From IMG/VR virus record IMGVR_UViG_2713896779_000027: 4,011 nucleotides of DNA. One strand, written 5' to 3'. The stretch comes from a virus (Duplodnaviria; Heunggongvirae; Uroviricota; Caudoviricetes). A program made the position numbers and the translations under genes. This document shows, one piece after another, positions 885-4,011 of the stretch (positions are counted from its first letter, which is position 1; each line of letters begins with the position of its first letter). The notes under the pieces were generated by a model, which saw only the letters and a list, made by a program, of their open reading frames with translations, ran no database searches and was not told the origin of the DNA.

Positions 885-1713
885 GGTTTACCCCTTTGCT
901 GACTGGTTTAACCTGCGCCCTGACGTGATTTACGTGACGGGCGAATTTCTGCTCCCACTGAATCTGCGTAAACACTTTCCCCTCCGCTGCCCAGTAGTCC
1001 CGGAAGGCGGCAAGTTCAGCAGGTGTAAATTCTGTCTCCGGCAAAGCCATCCCCCACAACGCAGCCCGTCGTCGAAAATCCCGTGACGGATACCAGCTAT
1101 CGCTCATCGGGAATTTTCCGATGGGTTCGCTCAGGCCATACAGGAATACAGGGGGGGCTGCCTGTAACGACAAAACTTCCTGCTCACTGGTCGGAGCACT
1201 CTCGCGTGCGTTATGTGTGGGGTTTAGATCTTTGGGTTCCTTTGGGTTCCGTGATCCGTTTTTGGGTGTCTTTGATGGAAAATTTGGGTGTCTTTGGTTA
1301 TTTTCCATGCAGCTAAGAGTTCTGTTTTTGGGTCTGTTTTGTGCTGAAACATAACCATTTTCGGTACTGTTTTTATTAACAGCACCAATTTTACCCACCT
1401 TTAAAGACTCCCGTTTTTGGGTGTATTCAGGCTCGGCAACACTTTCTTCTACACCGATAAGTCGGTACACCACAATTTGCTTTGTTCTGCCTTTTCTCTC
1501 ACCGGTATCAACAATTAACCCAATCTCCATCAGGTGTCGTAAGCTGTCCTGCACAGTCTTTTTGTTCAGTTCCGTTACTTCTGCCAGTGCAGATACAGAC
1601 GGGTATGCACACAAATCGGCACCGCACATATCAGCAAGCCAGGTCAATACTGACTTACTGGATGAACTGCCGGTTTTCACCTTTTTAGCCCATCGTAGTG
1701 CATCGATACTCAT
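673..1713 (-). CDS. phage replication initiation protein, O-like in function (N-terminal HTH domain, iteron-bearing linker, C-terminal domain)
   Basis: Long minus-strand ORF (track: 673..1788). N-terminal region (...SVLTWLADMCGADLCAYPSVSALAEVTELNKKTVQDSLRHLMEIGLIVD...) matches the winged-HTH pattern of phage replication initiators. A Pro/Lys-rich linker (TPKNGSRNPKEPKDLNP) is encoded by the repeat array. Lies between the cII-position gene and the P-like gene. Start placed at the internal ATG 1713..1711 (MSIDALRW...), which has AGGGG 7 nt upstream and overlaps the upstream gene by only 29 nt; the 1788 start would overlap it by 104 nt. Confidence 0.8.
   Translation of the reverse strand: MSIDALRWAKKVKTGSSSSKSVLTWLADMCGADLCAYPSVSALAEVTELNKKTVQDSLRHLMEIGLIVDTGERKGRTKQIVVYRLIGVEESVAEPEYTQKRESLKVGKIGAVNKNSTENGYVSAQNRPKNRTLSCMENNQRHPNFPSKTPKNGSRNPKEPKDLNPTHNARESAPTSEQEVLSLQAAPPVFLYGLSEPIGKFPMSDSWYPSRDFRRRAALWGMALPETEFTPAELAAFRDYWAAEGKVFTQIQWEQKFARHVNHVRAQVKPVSKGVNHAAAPGGTASRAVQEIRAAREQWERENGFISDGNGLEAVGTHGGGLFEPLDPEERGRTFEALDCTDWRDD
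1231..1428. repeat. iteron-like direct repeats inside the O-like gene (candidate prophage replication origin)
   Basis: Six copies of a TTTGGGT core, starting at 1231, 1241, 1261, 1283, 1327 and 1416. Includes a perfect 10-bp tandem TTTGGGTTCC x2 (1231-1250) and a perfect 14-bp direct repeat TTTGGGTGTCTTTG (1261-1274 and 1283-1296). Spacings of 10, 20, 22, 44 and 89 bp are close to multiples of the helical repeat. An AT-richer stretch lies between 1340 and 1410. Lambda ori is likewise an iteron array within the O coding sequence. Confidence 0.6.
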
Positions 1714-2236
1714 ACGAACCCCTGGCAGACATTTGTTTATCTGCAAAGTAATATTGGTATTGCTGACGATACGCGTGCTTGAAAGCAATAGCTTTTTCTA
1801 TAAGCTCGTCAGTCTCACGTTCCACAACAACTGGATCCGCAAAAAGCAGCCCGGACTCCACCACATCGCCATATTCTTTGTTTAACCCGGCGATCATGTA
1901 CGTAATGCTTTTTCCGTCAGTAATTTCACAATACAATCTGAAATCGCTGATCCGGATAGCCTCCATAATTGCCGGAATCTGCGCCGTGAATTTGTCACGC
2001 TTATCTCTGGTGTCGATAGCTTTCCAGCGTTCGAATATCTTCACCCGGTTAACGCCCAGCGCCCGTTGATCAACCTCGCCATCATTAAACGTGACGCGTT
2101 GAACATCGATGTTCGGGCGTTCTTTCAGAGCCCAGAATGCTTCCGTGATTAATATCGTCGCCTGCTCCTGTGTCATTCCTGGTCGGCATACCCAGGTATC
2201 CAGAGCCTCACAAACCTGTTCAGTGGTGATTTTCAT
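1685..2236 (-). CDS. hypothetical early-operon protein in the cII position (possibly YdaT-like CII analogue)
   Basis: 183-aa ORF immediately downstream of the Cro-like gene (17-nt overlap) and upstream of the O-like gene. Translation looks protein-like with no low-complexity runs. The only start support is a weak GGGG about 10 nt upstream of the ATG at 2236. Function is assigned from position only; the family call is a tentative recollection. Confidence 0.6.
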   Translation of the reverse strand: MKITTEQVCEALDTWVCRPGMTQEQATILITEAFWALKERPNIDVQRVTFNDGEVDQRALGVNRVKIFERWKAIDTRDKRDKFTAQIPAIMEAIRISDFRLYCEITDGKSITYMIAGLNKEYGDVVESGLLFADPVVVERETDELIEKAIAFKHAYRQQYQYYFADKQMSARGSYEYRCTTMG

Positions 2237-2523: not shown

Positions 2524-2931
2524 ATGAAAAACGAAACCTTCGGTGCTCGCCTCTTATACAGGCGAAAAAAATTAAAACTGTCTCAGGCCGCATTAGGTAA
2601 GCTGGTCAAAGTGGCTCACGTAACAATTTCTCAATGGGAAAGAGATGAAACACAGCCAGCGGGGAAGAGATTATTCGCACTGAGCCAGGCGCTTCAGTGC
2701 TCGCCGACTTGGCTTCTTTTTGGAGATGAAGATAAGCAACCAGGCGAACCGATCCCAGATAATCAGCCAGTCAATCTGACAGAAGATCAAAAAGAGTTGC
2801 TTCAACTGTTCGACGCACTGCCTGAGTCAGAGCAAAAGGCTCTGTTGTCAGAGATGCGTGCTCGAGTTGAGAATTTCAACAAACTTTTTGAAGAACTACT
2901 CAAAGCTCGCAAAAGAAGCGCAAATAAATAA
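2524..2931 (+). CDS. dicA: DicA-like HTH (XRE-family) prophage repressor, CI functional analogue without an S24 peptidase domain
   Basis: 135-aa ORF. N-terminal HTH (...LSQAALGKLVKVAHVTISQWERDETQP...) and a C-terminal segment (...LFALSQALQCSPTWLLFGDEDKQP...LPESEQ...EMRARVENFNKLFEELLKARKR...) closely resemble E. coli Qin DicA as I recall it (...LFALSKVLQCSPTWILFGDEDKQP...LPESEQ...EMRARVKNFNKLFEELLKARQR...). Divergent from the Cro-like gene and flanked by operator clusters. The symbol denotes a homologue, not necessarily the K-12 Qin locus. Confidence 0.9.
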   Translation: MKNETFGARLLYRRKKLKLSQAALGKLVKVAHVTISQWERDETQPAGKRLFALSQALQCSPTWLLFGDEDKQPGEPIPDNQPVNLTEDQKELLQLFDALPESEQKALLSEMRARVENFNKLFEELLKARKRSANK

Positions 2932-3006
2932 CCCCCCTTTTTTTCGCAACTCTCTGTAATAAAAAGCACAAACTTTCAAATACTTGTGTTTTTTACATCA
3001 AGAAGC

Positions 3007-3059
3007 TTAGGTTTTTCTACACAAAAAGCTTGACCATAACTCTTAGGTTATTCTAAATT
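3007..3059 (+). promoter_or_regulatory. OL-like operator pair with candidate PL-like promoter downstream of the repressor gene
   Basis: Site at 3007-3020 is TTAGgtttttCTAC; with its 5' C (3006-3020, CTTAGGTTTTTCTAC) it matches the reverse complement of OR site 2 at 14 of 15 positions. Site at 3043-3056 is TTAGgttattCTAA. Between them is TTGACC (3030-3035), with TAAATT (3054-3059) as a weak -10 at 18-nt spacing overlapping the second site. Orientation is inverted relative to the OR sites, as OL is to OR in lambda. Confidence 0.5.
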
Positions 3060-3138
3060 CTACTCATCAAGACACCGCACGGTGTTCTCAGCAAACAGTT
3101 CCGCTACCCGGCGTTAAGGGGAAGCAGAGGATTTCTCA

Positions 3139-3290
3139 GTGGGCGAAGTCAAACATCAGAATGGAAGGCGTCCAGGGATCAGCAAAGAAACAGCGATGGC
3201 GCTTTATATTGATATCAGCGCCATTGCCGGACAGGTAAGAGTTATCAGAGCGGTAACTAAGCGGTATGCGCCTTTACTTCAGAAAGTCTC
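3139..3290 (+). CDS. hypothetical protein, N-terminal fragment interrupted by assembly gap
   Basis: GTG at 3139 with GAGGA (3127-3131) 7 nt upstream. Frame is open for 50 codons up to the N-run (VGEVKHQNGRRPGISKETAMALYIDISAIAGQVRVIRAVTKRYAPLLQKV). Contains AGG/AGA codons, typical of phage accessory genes. First ORF downstream of the candidate PL-like promoter. No recognisable family, so it may not be a real gene. Confidence 0.35.
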
Positions 3291-3340
3291 NNNNNNNNNN
3301 NNNNNNNNNNNNNNNNNNNNNNNNNNNNNNNNNNNNNNNN
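3291..3340. other. run of 50 N: assembly gap or masked sequence
   Basis: Fifty consecutive n characters, directly visible. True length and content are unknown, and the two flanks may not be contiguous. Confidence 0.99.
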
Positions 3341-3432
3341 ACCAATTTCCTCTCGAGTAACAGACCCCTCAGAGGATACCACCTCGCCTGACGTGGTTAA
3401 AAAGCAGGCAACGCTAACCACAAGGAGCCGAC

Positions 3433-3651
3433 ATGCAGAAACGAGACCCCGTCATCATCGCGCCAGACTATACCGATGATGAACTTTATGAGTGGATGCA
3501 CCAGAAAATTAAGGCGGTGCAGGACCTGAAATGGGCCAATGAAGCCAGGGCTAAGCAGGCTGAAAATCTGTCCGCTCTGGAGCAGGATATCACCAATCTG
3601 GAAAAAGCAGCGGCATTAAGCATTGCCAGAATGATTACATACCTGAGGTAG
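3433..3651 (+). CDS. hypothetical 72-aa protein, probably 3'-truncated by the IS insertion
   Basis: ATG at 3433 with AAGGAG (3422-3427) 5 nt upstream. Translation MQKRDPVIIAPDYTDDELYEWMHQKIKAVQDLKWANEARAKQAENLSALEQDITNLEKAAALSIARMITYLR is helical/coiled-coil-like. The stop (3649-3651) falls within the first bases of the inferred IS left end. No family recognised. Confidence 0.6.
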   Translation: MQKRDPVIIAPDYTDDELYEWMHQKIKAVQDLKWANEARAKQAENLSALEQDITNLEKAAALSIARMITYLR

Positions 3652-4011
3652 CCTGAGTTTAACGGACACTCCTTCCTGAAATAGAATGGCATCAGAAGGA
3701 GCTAATAATGAGCAGAAAAACCCAACGTTACTCTAAAGAGTTCAAAGCCGAAGCTGTCAGAACGGTTCTTGAAAATCAACTTTCGATCAGTGAAGGCGCT
3801 TCCCGATTATCTCTTCCTGAAGGCACTTTAGGACAATGGGTTACCGCCGCCAGAAAAGGGCTCGGTACTCCTGGTTCCCGCACGGTGGCTGAACTGGAAT
3901 CTGAAATTCTGCAACTGCGTAAGGCGTTAAATGAAGCTCGCCTTGAGCGAGATATATTAAAAAAAGCAACAGCGTATTTTGCACAGGAGTCGCTGAAAAA
4001 TACGCGTTAAT
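3644..4011 (+). mobile_element. IS3-family insertion sequence, left end and orfA (element continues beyond the right edge)
   Basis: orfA-type transposase gene with the characteristic HTH N-terminus and leucine-zipper C-terminus, followed by an A7 run (3959-3965) typical of the IS3-family -1 frameshift site. The -1 frame stays open to the window end. Left terminus inferred at TGAGGTAGCC... (3644), with GGACAC at 3664-3669, by analogy with IS3-family inverted repeats that begin with TG. The boundary could instead be at the TGAG at 3654. Confidence 0.7.
3708..4010 (+). CDS. IS3-family transposase OrfA (IS600/IS911-like architecture)
   Basis: 100-aa ORF MSRKTQRYSKEFKAEAVRTVLENQLSISEGASRLSLPEGTLGQWV...LESEILQLRKALNEARLERDILKKATAYFAQESLKNTR. 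Same layout and C-terminal ...ILKKATA...SLN..R motif as IS911 OrfA from memory. AAGGAG (3695-3700) 7 nt upstream of the ATG. Slippery A-run just before the stop. Confidence 0.9.
   Translation: MSRKTQRYSKEFKAEAVRTVLENQLSISEGASRLSLPEGTLGQWVTAARKGLGTPGSRTVAELESEILQLRKALNEARLERDILKKATAYFAQESLKNTR

What the first reader, a model, noticed from the sequence alone, without database searches (positions are those of the whole stretch)
3139..3651. Unidentified cargo between the PL-like promoter and the IS, in the repressor-proximal slot where lambda carries rexAB
Two ORFs with good ribosome-binding sites match no family I recognise: the GTG-initiated ORF at 3139 and the 72-aa ORF at 3433. They sit immediately downstream of the repressor and a candidate operator-controlled promoter. 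In lambdoid phages this position commonly holds superinfection-exclusion or defence cargo (rexAB in lambda). The locus is interrupted by a 50-N gap and clipped by an IS, so only fragments are visible. This is the most likely place in the window for an undescribed function, but the evidence is positional only.
Basis: partly seen in the sequence, partly recalled or inferred. Interest (0 to 1): 0.6.

Follow-up and report, generated by a model that had tools for sequence, protein, structure and literature searches.

The report
Prophage dicBF operon head, ordinary
The "unidentified cargo" is the start of a well-known prophage operon (the dicBF type of E. coli): one ORF is the already named gene ydfC, and the other is mostly the mirror image of a small zinc-ribbon gene on the opposite strand that is hidden in the assembly gap, so the locus is ordinary although the functions of both genes are still unknown.

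Summary
The two ORFs exist, but the interpretation does not hold. The window is the immunity region of a defective lambdoid prophage. It is 100% identical to E. coli O121:H19 chromosomes and syntenic with K-12 Qin. The order is Cro/DicC-like gene, DicA-like repressor, dicBp/PL-like promoter with two operators, then the finding. This is the early-left (N) slot, not the rexAB slot. A terminator and the promoter lie between the repressor gene and the ORFs.

The ORF at 3433 is ydfC, 93% identical to K-12 YdfC and of unknown function. IS600 (left end at 3644, 3-bp duplication ACC) replaced its last two sense codons and its stop.

The 50-N gap stands for 185 nt. Across it, the ORF at 3139 is 118 aa from the GTG, or 99 aa as annotated (WP_001240336.1, phrog_21318). 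On the minus strand it is overlapped codon for codon by a 66-codon CxxC…CxxC gene of the NCBIfam family ECs_2282. That gene has its own conserved promoter, ribosome-binding site and terminator hairpin. Substitution patterns show selection on the zinc-ribbon frame and neutral change in ORF1. This allele of the zinc-ribbon gene carries a premature stop.

There are no defence-family or N-like matches. The locus is already known and of low interest.

The parts
2524..2931 (+). DicA-like HTH repressor (135 aa), the CI equivalent. It is context for the finding.
   Evidence: Pfam HTH_3, E = 4e-14. 63% identical over 131 aa to K-12 DicA, and the same length. Annotated as WP_000787428.1.
2960..2995 (+). 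Terminator-like hairpin with a U run after the repressor gene. It separates the repressor transcript from the downstream operon.
   Evidence: Fold of 2926-3010: 12-bp stem, -12.5 kcal/mol, z = -3.13, 0 of 200 shuffles as stable.
3006..3057 (+). Two operator-like sites (3006-3021 and 3042-3057, CTTAG-N6-CTAAG type) that flank and overlap the promoter.
   Evidence: Pattern search: 6 sites in the window against 1.41 expected; none of 200 shuffles reaches 6. Three further sites lie at 2457-2523 between the cro-like and repressor genes.
3030..3059 (+). PL-like early-left promoter, homologous to dicBp of Qin (TTGACC-18-TAAATT).
   Evidence: Promoter scan. It aligns with the K-12 dicA-ydfA intergenic promoter region. 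dicBp is repressed by DicA (PMC10448788).
3064..3135 (+). Conserved operon leader with the hairpin ACACCG-CA-CGGTGT (3071-3086) and a ribosome-binding region. It is nearly identical to the K-12 leader upstream of ydfA.
   Evidence: Alignment with K-12. The hairpin folds, but the leader as a whole is not unusually stable (z = 0.07; hairpin alone z = -1.85).
3139..3360 (+). ORF1: 118 codons from GTG 3139, or 99 codons from ATG 3196 as annotated by PGAP, once the gap is filled. It is most likely a shadow ORF, possibly translated but not selected as a protein.
   Evidence: Complete sequence from the 100%-identical genome L001. phrog_21318 matches residues 20-118. ORF1-frame changes are neutral-like: 10 synonymous and 33 non-synonymous, with 0.23 synonymous expected. 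Within E. coli, pN/pS is 1.87.
3291..3340 (.). Assembly gap: 50 N standing for 185 nt. It hides nearly all of the zinc-ribbon gene.
   Evidence: The megablast match spans 861 nt of the record against 726 nt of query, in two pieces at 100% identity. Sequence read from L001.
3274..3339 (-). ECs_2282-family CxxC...CxxC zinc-ribbon gene, 66 codons in the real sequence. Its stop is at 3276..3274. Only its last five sense codons and part of a sixth (3277-3290) are visible. Its ATG lies 2 nt inside the right edge of the gap. In this allele codon 14 is TAA.
   Evidence: Antisense translations in seven lineages outside E. coli O121 keep the four Cys. NCBIfam NF047912 scores 52-58 bits against a cutoff of 37. 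PGAP annotates only this gene where it is intact. The stop at codon 14 is seen in L001 and L002.
3346..3400 (-). Expression signals of the zinc-ribbon gene on the minus strand: -35 TTAACC (3400..3395), 16-nt spacer, extended -10 TGgTATCCT (3381..3373), and ribosome-binding site GAGAGGAAA (3354..3346).
   Evidence: Conserved upstream of the zinc-ribbon ATG in E. coli, C. freundii, Serratia and two metagenomic lineages, and more weakly in Klebsiella and Citrobacter. The generic scan did not report it, so this is an inference from conservation.
3196..3224 (-). Terminator-like hairpin of the zinc-ribbon transcript (AUGGCGCU-13 nt-AGCGCCAU on the minus strand), followed by the U-rich tract 3195..3180. 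It coincides with the conserved N terminus and the ribosome-binding site of the annotated ORF1.
   Evidence: RNAalifold on 8 lineages gives 9 pairs, 3 of them with compensatory changes. Four sequences have G-U on the minus strand, which would be A-C on the plus strand.
3433..3651 (+). ydfC (72 aa). The native sequence runs to 3643. The last two sense codons and the stop come from IS600.
   Evidence: 93% identical to K-12 YdfC. phrog_1744, E = 9e-39. Annotated as ydfC. AlphaFold2: a single helix over residues 15-71, pLDDT 86.6. Junction alignment.
3644..4011 (+). Left end of IS600 (IS3 family), starting TGAGGTAGCC. orfA is at 3708-4010. The insertion splits the operon between ydfC and the downstream genes.
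   Evidence: PGAP calls it an IS3-like element IS600 family transposase. Alignment with the IS-free locus L002 and with the right IS end in L001 shows the 3-bp duplication ACC.

Best explanation
Positions 3139-3651 are the promoter-proximal part of the early-left operon of a defective lambdoid prophage. The prophage belongs to the ompW-integrated PPompW type of Shiga-toxigenic E. coli, and this copy matches the O121:H19 lineage. The operon is the counterpart of the dicBF operon of K-12 Qin.

Shown:
- A DicA-like repressor gene is followed by a terminator. Next comes a dicBp-like promoter bracketed by two CTTAG-N6-CTAAG operators, then a leader almost identical to the Qin leader.
- Where Qin has ydfA-ydfB, this prophage has a different insert. 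It is a self-contained cassette on the opposite strand: an extended -10 promoter, a ribosome-binding site, a 66-codon CxxC...CxxC zinc-ribbon gene of the NCBIfam family ECs_2282, and a terminator hairpin.
- ORF1 is the codon-aligned reverse reading of that cassette. It is extended by the inherited leader ribosome-binding site and GTG on one side and by a few codons on the other.
- Selection acts on the zinc-ribbon frame, not on ORF1.
- In this lineage the zinc-ribbon gene has a nonsense codon at position 14, and in the window its body is hidden in the N gap.
- ydfC follows. It encodes a 72-residue protein with a conserved N-terminal peptide (PVIIAPDYTDDELYEW) and one long helix. It is the conserved gene ahead of dicF and dicB.
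- IS600 landed in its second-last sense codon and cut the operon off from its distal genes: a 135-codon ORF, dicF, dicB, an exonuclease gene, xis and int.

Inferred:
- In the lysogen the repressor keeps ydfC off. On derepression, transcription from the PL-like promoter runs through the cassette in antisense and into ydfC.
- When intact, the zinc-ribbon cassette behaves as a moron transcribed towards the early promoter. It is expressed when that promoter is silent and opposed by it when active.
- YdfC most likely acts as a small coiled-coil, peptide-presenting binder of a host or phage protein during early lytic or derepressed growth. Its target is unknown.
For: Identity and synteny:
- The window is 100% identical to six O121:H19 chromosomes, including the IS600 junction. 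The ydfC part occurs in 3941 of 5426 complete E. coli genomes.
- K-12 Qin has the order dicC, dicA, ydfA, ydfB, ydfC, dicF, dicB, ydfD.
- The repressor is 63% identical to DicA and YdfC is 93% identical to K-12 YdfC. The leader is nearly identical to the K-12 leader.
- A DicF match lies at L002 7828-7877 (43.5 bits, E = 1e-7), followed by dicB.
- Operators and promoter. Repressor terminator.

Zinc-ribbon gene:
- The antisense ORF with four invariant Cys is conserved in E. coli, Klebsiella, Citrobacter (two species), Serratia and two metagenomic lineages.
- NF047912 scores 52-58 bits against a cutoff of 37. phrog_4852 matches at E = 3e-9.
- PGAP annotates only this gene in intact alleles. It annotates ORF1 only where the zinc-ribbon gene is broken.

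Selection:
- Across 7 lineages the minimum changes in the overlap at ORF1 codon positions 1:2:3 are 69:25:50.
- In 30 E. coli alleles they are 27:4:12. The ORF1 frame has 10 synonymous and 33 non-synonymous changes, equal to the neutral fraction of 0.23. The zinc-ribbon frame has 24 and 19 (0.56 against a neutral 0.21). Fisher p = 0.004.
- Between the O121 and divergent E. coli copies, pN/pS is 0.11 in the zinc-ribbon frame and 1.87 in ORF1.
- ORF1 tolerates six E/K charge reversals that are silent in the zinc-ribbon frame.

Signals: conserved promoter and ribosome-binding site; hairpin with compensatory changes and strand-specific G-U pairs.

IS junction.

Literature:
- ydfABC are uncharacterised promoter-proximal genes of the dicBF operon (PMC5069750).
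- dicBp is repressed by DicA and relieved by the antirepressor Rem (PMC10448788).
Against: - The ORF1 frame is open in all eight lineages examined and has a ribosome-binding site and start codon in each. The start is GTG in O121 and ATG in a divergent E. coli copy.
- The 26 ORF1 codons outside the overlap show a weak coding-like pattern (31:23:43, chi-square p = 0.04). They also have a slightly raised synonymous fraction (12 of 31 against 0.24 expected). These counts are not independent, and the stretch also holds the conserved hairpin.
- AlphaFold2 gave a moderately confident fold for ORF1 (pLDDT 70).
- Between genera, the asymmetry between codon positions 1 and 3 is small (17-20 against 17-18).
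- No expression data were available for either strand. The promoter and terminator of the zinc-ribbon gene are inferred from conservation, and the generic scan did not flag them.
- The body of the zinc-ribbon gene and its stop codon are not in the window. They are inferred from genomes that are 100% identical on both flanks.
- The functions of YdfC and of the zinc-ribbon protein are not shown by anything here.
Confidence: 0.8

Rival explanations
1. ORF1 (WP_001240336.1, phrog_21318) is a real protein of 99-118 aa. It would be translated from the early-left transcript as the first gene of the operon. It would be either the only real gene in this stretch or one half of a true antisense dual-coding pair with the zinc-ribbon gene.
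For: - The frame is open in all eight lineages, down to about 44-53% zinc-ribbon identity.
- A ribosome-binding site and start codon are present in each lineage, with GTG in one E. coli copy and ATG in another.
- The ribosome-binding site is inherited from the ydfA leader, so ribosomes probably load there.
- The region outside the overlap shows a weak coding-like periodicity (31:23:43, p = 0.04).
- AlphaFold2 gives pLDDT 70.
- Among 30 E. coli alleles, ORF1 is never broken, whereas the zinc-ribbon gene is broken twice.
Against: - ORF1-frame changes in the overlap occur at the neutral ratio and include six E/K reversals.
- Within E. coli, pN/pS is 1.87.
- The N-terminal extension (codons 1-19) is neutral-like: 4 synonymous and 15 non-synonymous.
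- The conserved N-terminal motif coincides with an RNA hairpin whose G-U pairs work only on the other strand.
- NCBI's curated model and PGAP choose the other strand.
- The family is as narrow as the zinc-ribbon family, as expected for a shadow ORF: 10 clusters among 1.84 billion representatives.
Confidence: 0.15
2. The ORFs are lysogen-expressed superinfection-exclusion or defence cargo in a slot equivalent to lambda rexAB.
For: - The ORFs lie next to the repressor.
- The distal product of this operon type, DicB, protects E. coli from some phages (bioRxiv 10.1101/708461).
- The zinc-ribbon cassette has the build of a moron and could be expressed in lysogens.
- There is a weak PADLOC hit, PDC-M14A, at E = 0.0014 and 17 bits.
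Against: - The ORFs lie downstream of the repressed promoter, not between the repressor gene and that promoter. A terminator follows the repressor gene.
- ORF1, YdfC and the downstream 135-aa protein have no PADLOC match. The only hit for the zinc-ribbon protein is marginal and typical of zinc-ribbon similarity.
- ORF1 is not a selected protein.
- In this genome the zinc-ribbon gene is a pseudogene.
Confidence: 0.1
3. ORF1 or YdfC is an N-like antiterminator that acts on a nut-like site in the conserved leader, as expected for the first gene after PL.
For: - The position is that of N.
- The leader, with a conserved hairpin at 3071-3086, is shared with Qin despite different first genes.
- The operon contains the DicF terminator, which must be read through to reach dicB (PMC5069750).
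Against: - Neither protein matches a Pfam or PHROG antiterminator family.
- Neither has an arginine-rich N terminus. ORF1 has pI 8.9 with only GRRPG, and YdfC is acidic with pI 5.3.
- I found no boxA-like element by eye.
- The leader fold is not exceptional (z = 0.07).
- ORF1 is not under protein-level selection.
Confidence: 0.04

Closest known systems
dicBF operon of the E. coli K-12 Qin (Kim) cryptic prophage (dicA | dicBp-ydfA-ydfB-ydfC-dicF-dicB-ydfD)
   Same: - The gene order around the switch is the same.
- The repressor is 63% identical and the same length.
- The promoter and leader are homologous.
- YdfC is 93% identical.
- In IS-free relatives, a DicF-like RNA and dicB follow.

   Different: - ydfA-ydfB are replaced by the convergent zinc-ribbon cassette.
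- A 135-codon ORF lies between ydfC and dicF in the IS-free relative.
- The operator sequences differ.
- IS600 interrupts the operon after ydfC.

NCBIfam NF047912, ECs_2282 family putative zinc-binding protein
   Same: Relatives of the gene opposite ORF1 score 52-58 bits against a cutoff of 37. They keep both CxxC pairs and are annotated under this name by PGAP at the same locus.
   Different: The copy belonging to this window's lineage has TAA at codon 14 and is therefore not annotated. In the window itself the gene body is replaced by N. No function has been published; no paper in the library mentions the name.
Phage morons (a self-contained promoter-gene-terminator cassette inserted into a phage operon, as defined for lambdoid phages by Hendrix and colleagues; from my own knowledge)
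   Same: - It has its own conserved promoter, ribosome-binding site and terminator hairpin.
- It is present or absent between otherwise homologous operons.
- It is found on the PL side in E. coli, C. freundii and Serratia and on the PR side, after cro, in Klebsiella and C. amalonaticus.

   Different: Expression in the lysogen and any benefit to the host are untested. The cassette always faces the nearest early promoter, which is not a general property of morons.
Lambda rexAB
   Same: It is accessory cargo next to the immunity repressor.
   Different: - rexAB lies between cI and PL and is co-transcribed with cI in the lysogen.
- These ORFs lie beyond a terminator and beyond the repressed promoter.
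- There is no sequence similarity and no defence-family match.

Antisense elements facing lambdoid early operons (lambda OOP RNA against cII, P22 sar against ant; from my own knowledge)
   Same: A short convergent transcript a few hundred nucleotides downstream of an early promoter. In Klebsiella and Citrobacter it occupies the cII position.
   Different: Here the convergent transcript encodes a conserved protein under purifying selection. Any regulatory effect on the early operon is speculation.

Membership tests
YdfC (Qin prophage protein; phrog_1744) | Full-length sequence similarity to K-12 YdfC | tested here: met
   67 of 72 residues identical, E = 7e-49. phrog_1744, E = 9e-39. PGAP names it ydfC.
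YdfC (Qin prophage protein; phrog_1744) | Position in a DicA-controlled operon, upstream of dicF and dicB | tested here: met
   Same order in L001, L002, L004, L101 and K-12. DicF match at L002 7828-7877. In the window itself the distal part is cut off by IS600.
YdfC (Qin prophage protein; phrog_1744) | Intact native C terminus (...TYPR) | tested here: not met
   IS600 replaces the last two sense codons and the stop, giving ...TYLR.
ECs_2282 family putative zinc-binding protein (NF047912) | HMM score above the curated cutoff and two CxxC motifs | tested here: met
   Met for relatives at the same locus (52-58 bits against 37), with the four Cys invariant except in one cluster that looks frameshifted (P0136). 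For the window's own allele, the motifs are present in the 100%-identical genome L001.
ECs_2282 family putative zinc-binding protein (NF047912) | Uninterrupted ORF in this genome | tested here: not met
   L001 and L002 (the window's lineage) have TAA at codon 14, where other alleles have GAA. In the window itself this position lies in the N gap, so this is inferred.
phrog_21318 / WP_001240336.1 as a real protein family (ORF1) | Purifying selection in its own reading frame | tested here: not met
   In the overlap there are 10 synonymous and 33 non-synonymous changes, equal to the neutral expectation. pN/pS is 1.87 within E. coli. The other frame carries the constraint.
phrog_21318 / WP_001240336.1 as a real protein family (ORF1) | Open frame with translation signals in all relatives | tested here: met
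   Open in eight lineages, with a ribosome-binding site and start codon in each. The ribosome-binding-site-like purine runs are the complement of the pyrimidine-rich (U/C) tract after the minus-strand hairpin.
Lambda RexAB-type repressor-operon exclusion cargo | Located between the repressor gene and PL and co-transcribed with the repressor | tested here: not met
   A terminator-like hairpin (2960-2995) and the promoter with its operators (3006-3059) lie between the repressor and the ORFs.
Lambda RexAB-type repressor-operon exclusion cargo | Homology to RexA/RexB or to any catalogued defence protein | tested here: not met
   PADLOC gives nothing for ORF1, YdfC or the 135-aa neighbour. The zinc-ribbon protein has only a 17-bit marginal hit.
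N-type antiterminator | Arginine-rich N-terminal motif and an N-family profile match | tested here: not met
   No Pfam or PHROG antiterminator hit. No arginine-rich motif is visible in either sequence.
N-type antiterminator | nut site (boxA plus boxB hairpin) in the leader | tested here: inconclusive
   A conserved hairpin at 3071-3086 is present and shared with K-12.
Moron cassette | Own promoter and own terminator flanking a single gene | tested here: inconclusive
   A conserved extended -10 promoter and ribosome-binding site and a hairpin with 3 compensatory pairs are present by sequence. Transcription was not measured.
Moron cassette | Presence or absence between otherwise homologous operons | tested here: met
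   K-12 has ydfA-ydfB in exactly this place, between the shared leader and the ydfC ATG. The cassette also occurs on the PR side in other genera.

The most novel reading that the evidence does not exclude
The ECs_2282-type zinc-ribbon cassette could be more than a passive moron. In every lineage examined it sits a few hundred nucleotides downstream of an early promoter and faces it: PL/dicBp in E. coli, C. freundii and Serratia, and PR after cro in Klebsiella and C. amalonaticus. An inverted repeat (CCAC-N10-GTGG) lies inside its promoter spacer.

It could therefore be a lysogeny-phase unit that does two things. It would produce a small acidic zinc-ribbon protein (net charge -7). It would also damp leaky early-operon expression by convergent transcription or antisense pairing, and so limit the toxic dicF and dicB products.

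A second possibility is that the opposite frame, ORF1, is kept open and translated only to protect the early transcript from Rho-dependent termination. That would be coding without selection on the protein.
Probability: 0.15. Interest if true: 0.55.

Novelty: already known. Interest (0 to 1): 0.22.

Why it matters
For the scan, this removes a false lead. The "most likely place for an undescribed function" is a stretch present in hundreds to thousands of sequenced E. coli genomes, and both genes already have names.

Three practical lessons follow:
1. An N gap can hide the real gene and leave its mirror-image ORF looking like the feature.
2. Annotation flips between strands depending on a single nonsense mutation. 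PGAP calls the zinc-ribbon gene where it is intact and calls ORF1 a "hypothetical protein" where it is broken. As a result, phrog_21318 and WP_001240336.1 probably describe a non-gene.
3. Position relative to the early promoter, not just closeness to the repressor, decides whether cargo is expressed in the lysogen.

Biologically, YdfC and the ECs_2282 protein remain uncharacterised members of an operon whose other products (DicF, DicB, YdfD) all strongly affect the host. Both are reasonable targets for experiments, but not surprising ones.

Tried and rejected
- Pfam, NCBIfam and PADLOC on ORF1 and YdfC gave only sub-threshold noise: B1 domain, TcA_TcB_BD and GBS alpha-like, all at about 15 bits.
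- PDB sequence searches with the ORF1 and YdfC profiles found nothing below E = 0.4.
- The AlphaFold2 model of YdfC is a single long helix, so I did not run a fold search on it.
- An exhaustive profile search for ORF1 found only 10 clusters in 1.84 billion representatives. There are no distant relatives to learn from.
- The genome-contig scan returned one real relative (Serratia). The other two hits (L017, L018) lack the shared promoter, opposite-strand ORF and hairpin and look like unrelated zinc ribbons, so I discarded them.
- Rfam at gathering thresholds found nothing in the window.
- The leader as a whole is not unusually structured.
- The weak PHROG hit of the zinc-ribbon protein to "Lar-like restriction alleviation protein" (E = 0.004) and the PADLOC hit PDC-M14A (E = 0.0014) look like general zinc-ribbon similarity. 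I did not use them.
- My first cross-genus codon alignment was misregistered. It was corrected.
Full report
**What the window is**

The 4011-base window is the immunity and replication region of a lambdoid prophage. On the minus strand it carries a P-like gene, an O-like gene with iterons, a YdaT-like gene in the cII position and a P22_Cro-type gene. On the plus strand it carries a 135-aa HTH repressor gene at 2524-2931.

Megablast of 2935-3660 against complete E. coli genomes gave 100% identity to six O121:H19 chromosomes, including the IS junction. At least 80% coverage was found in 515 genomes. The ydfC part alone was found in 3941 of 5426 genomes.

The same stretch occurs in GenBank prophage records named PPompW. 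In the annotated neighbourhoods the operon continues through dicB, a DUF1482 (YdfD-like) gene, an exonuclease gene, xis and int, next to an ompW fragment.

**Checking the observation**

Both ORFs are present with the ribosome-binding sites described.

The promoter claim holds. TTGACC-18-TAAATT lies at 3030-3059. It is bracketed by two CTTAG-N6-CTAAG-like sites. Three more such sites lie between the cro-like and repressor genes. That makes 6 sites against 1.4 expected, and none of 200 shuffles reaches 6.

The 50 N stand for 185 nt. The matching interval in the record is 861 nt for a 726-nt query, and I read the missing sequence from L001.

IS600 begins at 3644. Alignment with an IS-free relative and with the other IS end shows a 3-bp ACC duplication. 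The insertion lies in the second-last sense codon of ydfC, so the C terminus changes from ...TYPR to ...TYLR at unchanged length. ydfC is therefore essentially complete, not a fragment.

**The slot**

The repressor is 63% identical to K-12 DicA and the same length. The ORF at 3433 is 93% identical to K-12 YdfC. The 65 nt of leader after the promoter, including the hairpin at 3071-3086, are almost identical to the K-12 leader upstream of ydfA.

K-12 Qin has the order dicC, dicA, ydfA, ydfB, ydfC, dicF, dicB, ydfD. In the IS-free relative L002, a DicF match (43.5 bits, E = 1e-7) lies just upstream of dicB.

The literature describes this unit as the dicBF operon:
- It is transcribed from dicBp.
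- It is repressed by DicA and relieved by the antirepressor Rem.
- DicA and DicC play the parts of CI and Cro.
- ydfA, ydfB and ydfC are uncharacterised promoter-proximal genes.
(PMC5069750, PMC10448788.)

So the finding lies in the early-left (N) position, downstream of the repressed promoter. The rexAB position would be the 98 bp between the repressor stop and the promoter. That stretch holds only a terminator-like hairpin (z = -3.1, 0 of 200 shuffles).

**ORF1 and the other strand**

With the gap filled, ORF1 is 118 codons from the GTG, or 99 codons from the ATG at 3196. The latter is the PGAP call (WP_001240336.1) and also the extent of the phrog_21318 match.

Its family is tiny. It has 23 clusters among 5.8 billion proteins and 10 representatives among 1.84 billion, all from Enterobacterales.

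When I looked at relatives in Klebsiella and Citrobacter, the minus strand opposite ORF1 showed a conserved, codon-aligned ORF of about 66 codons. It has two CxxC pairs, for example MNTIKFSCPECGGE...GAICKNCGH....

Evidence that this is a recognised gene:
- It belongs to the NCBIfam family NF047912, "ECs_2282 family putative zinc-binding protein" (52-58 bits, cutoff 37).
- It also matches an independent PHROG family (phrog_4852, E = 3e-9).
- In RefSeq genomes with the intact allele, PGAP annotates only this minus-strand gene.
- In O121 and O157 genomes, where it carries TAA at codon 14, PGAP annotates ORF1 as a hypothetical protein instead.
- The locus is present in 936 of 5426 complete E. coli genomes.

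**Which frame is selected**

The two frames are codon-aligned, so position 1 of ORF1 is position 3 of the zinc-ribbon gene.
- Across seven lineages, the minimum number of changes in the overlap at ORF1 positions 1:2:3 is 69:25:50.
- Among 30 E. coli alleles it is 27:4:12.
- The ORF1 frame has 10 synonymous and 33 non-synonymous changes, exactly the neutral fraction of 0.23.
- The zinc-ribbon frame has 24 synonymous and 19 non-synonymous changes (0.56 against a neutral 0.21). Fisher p = 0.004.
- Between two E. coli copies of ORF1 that share 69% of their residues, pN/pS is 0.11 for the zinc-ribbon frame and 1.87 for ORF1.
- ORF1 shows six E/K charge reversals that are silent on the other strand.
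- The 19-codon extension from the GTG is neutral-like (4 synonymous, 15 non-synonymous).

The zinc-ribbon gene also has its own signals, conserved from E. coli to Serratia:
- TTAACC-16-TGgTATCCT, at window 3400..3373 on the minus strand.
- A strong ribosome-binding site at 3354..3346.
- About 50 nt after its stop, a hairpin at 3196-3224. It has three compensatory pairs and G-U pairs that exist only on the minus strand. A U-rich tract follows.

That hairpin and its tract explain why the annotated ORF1 appears to have a conserved N terminus and ribosome-binding site. The upstream GTG and its ribosome-binding site are simply the inherited leader signals that serve ydfA in K-12.

I conclude that ORF1 is the shadow of a real gene on the other strand. 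ORF1 may well be translated when the promoter fires, but it is not maintained as a protein.

Some evidence points the other way:
- The ORF1 frame is open in all eight lineages examined.
- Start signals are present in each.
- There is a weak coding-like periodicity outside the overlap (31:23:43, p = 0.04).
- The AlphaFold2 model has pLDDT 70.

I give the dual-coding rival 0.15.

**What is visible in the window**

Of the zinc-ribbon unit, the window shows:
- the promoter and ribosome-binding site (3346-3400);
- the last five sense codons, part of a sixth, and the stop (3274-3290);
- the terminator hairpin (3196-3224).

The ATG lies 2 nt inside the gap, and the gene body is replaced by N. The nonsense codon is inferred from the genomes that are identical on both flanks.

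**Cassette behaviour**

K-12 has ydfA-ydfB exactly where this prophage has the cassette, between the shared leader and the ydfC ATG.
- In inducible phages with other immunity types (Evi, vB_EcoS-640R1), the cassette and ydfC follow the repressor.
- In Klebsiella and C. amalonaticus prophages, the cassette sits after cro on the PR side, in the cII position.
- In C. freundii, Serratia and two metagenomic lineages, it follows the repressor.

In every case it faces the nearest early promoter. This has the build of a moron. Whether it also regulates the early operon is speculation.

**YdfC**

The family is essentially confined to Escherichia. The N-terminal peptide MQKREPVIIAPDYTDDELYEW is conserved. 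AlphaFold2 predicts a single helix over residues 15-71 with pLDDT 86.6.

Among 31 E. coli alleles, changes at codon positions 1:2:3 are 4:12:15, with 11 synonymous and 20 non-synonymous. This fits a weakly constrained real gene. No Pfam, NCBIfam, PADLOC or PDB relative was found.

The only papers that discuss it call it uncharacterised (PMC5069750). One preprint used it as an inert starting point for directed evolution (bioRxiv 10.1101/2025.03.22.644768).

My working mechanism is a small coiled-coil adaptor that presents its conserved acidic peptide to a host or phage partner once the operon is derepressed. This is inference from its shape and operon position only.

**Verdict**

Nothing here is new as sequence or as a family. 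ydfC and the ECs_2282 family are already named, and the window is identical to deposited genomes.

The useful results are three corrections:
- strand and gene identity for ORF1;
- the slot assignment;
- the exact IS600 junction.

Interest is low. The residual novel reading is a conserved convergent zinc-ribbon unit that modulates early-operon expression, or an ORF kept open without protein-level selection. I give it about 0.15.

Noticed in passing
window 3064-3128: The operon leader, with the hairpin ACACCG-CA-CGGTGT and a following 45-nt tract, is almost identical to the K-12 dicA-ydfA leader. This holds although the promoter, the operators and the first gene differ. Such conservation suggests a function (processing site, nut- or put-like element, or translation signal) that I could not identify.
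   Followed up: partly
window 3379-3396, minus strand (also L009, L011, L012, L014, L016): An inverted repeat, CCAC-N10-GTGG, lies in the spacer of the zinc-ribbon promoter and is conserved across genera. It could be an operator for an unknown regulator or an RNA hairpin in the early transcript.
   Followed up: no
window 1231-1427: Repeated TTTGGGTGTCTTTG and GTTTTTGGGT motifs lie inside the O-like replication gene (three copies of a 14-mer and three of a 24-mer). They are probably the origin iterons.
   Followed up: partly
window 1685-2236, minus strand: The cII position is occupied by a 183-aa YdaT_toxin-family protein (Pfam score 21.2 bits against a cutoff of 21). It overlaps the end of the cro-like gene by a few codons, as in Rac-type switches.
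   Followed up: no
L002 7828-7877 and 7866-8071: The DicF copy of this prophage scores 43.5 bits, just under Rfam's gathering score of 48, so a gathering-threshold scan misses it. An STnc100-like match (32.5 bits) covers the dicF-dicB spacer.
   Followed up: partly
L001 8142-8549 (+) and 8527-8760 (-); L002 6875-7493: Downstream of ydfC in this prophage type there is a 135-aa ORF (phrog_1363, unknown function). A 77-aa gene on the opposite strand overlaps its end. This is a second convergent small gene inside the same operon, absent from K-12 Qin.
   Followed up: no
L001 12550-12861; L002 2427-4779: The prophage is decaying in different ways in different lineages. In the O121 genome int is frameshifted and IS600 splits the early-left operon. 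In an O157 genome IS1203 splits the O-like gene.
   Followed up: no
L019-L098 (E. coli viral contigs): Among 30 alleles the zinc-ribbon gene has been knocked out at least twice independently: TTC>TTA at codon 14 and CTC>CTA at codon 44 of the zinc-ribbon frame. The opposite ORF1 frame is never interrupted.
   Followed up: partly
L014 / L015 3995-4519: In Citrobacter freundii the frame opposite the zinc-ribbon gene is open for 174 codons, and gene callers report it as a protein. This is another place where annotation probably follows the shadow frame.
   Followed up: no
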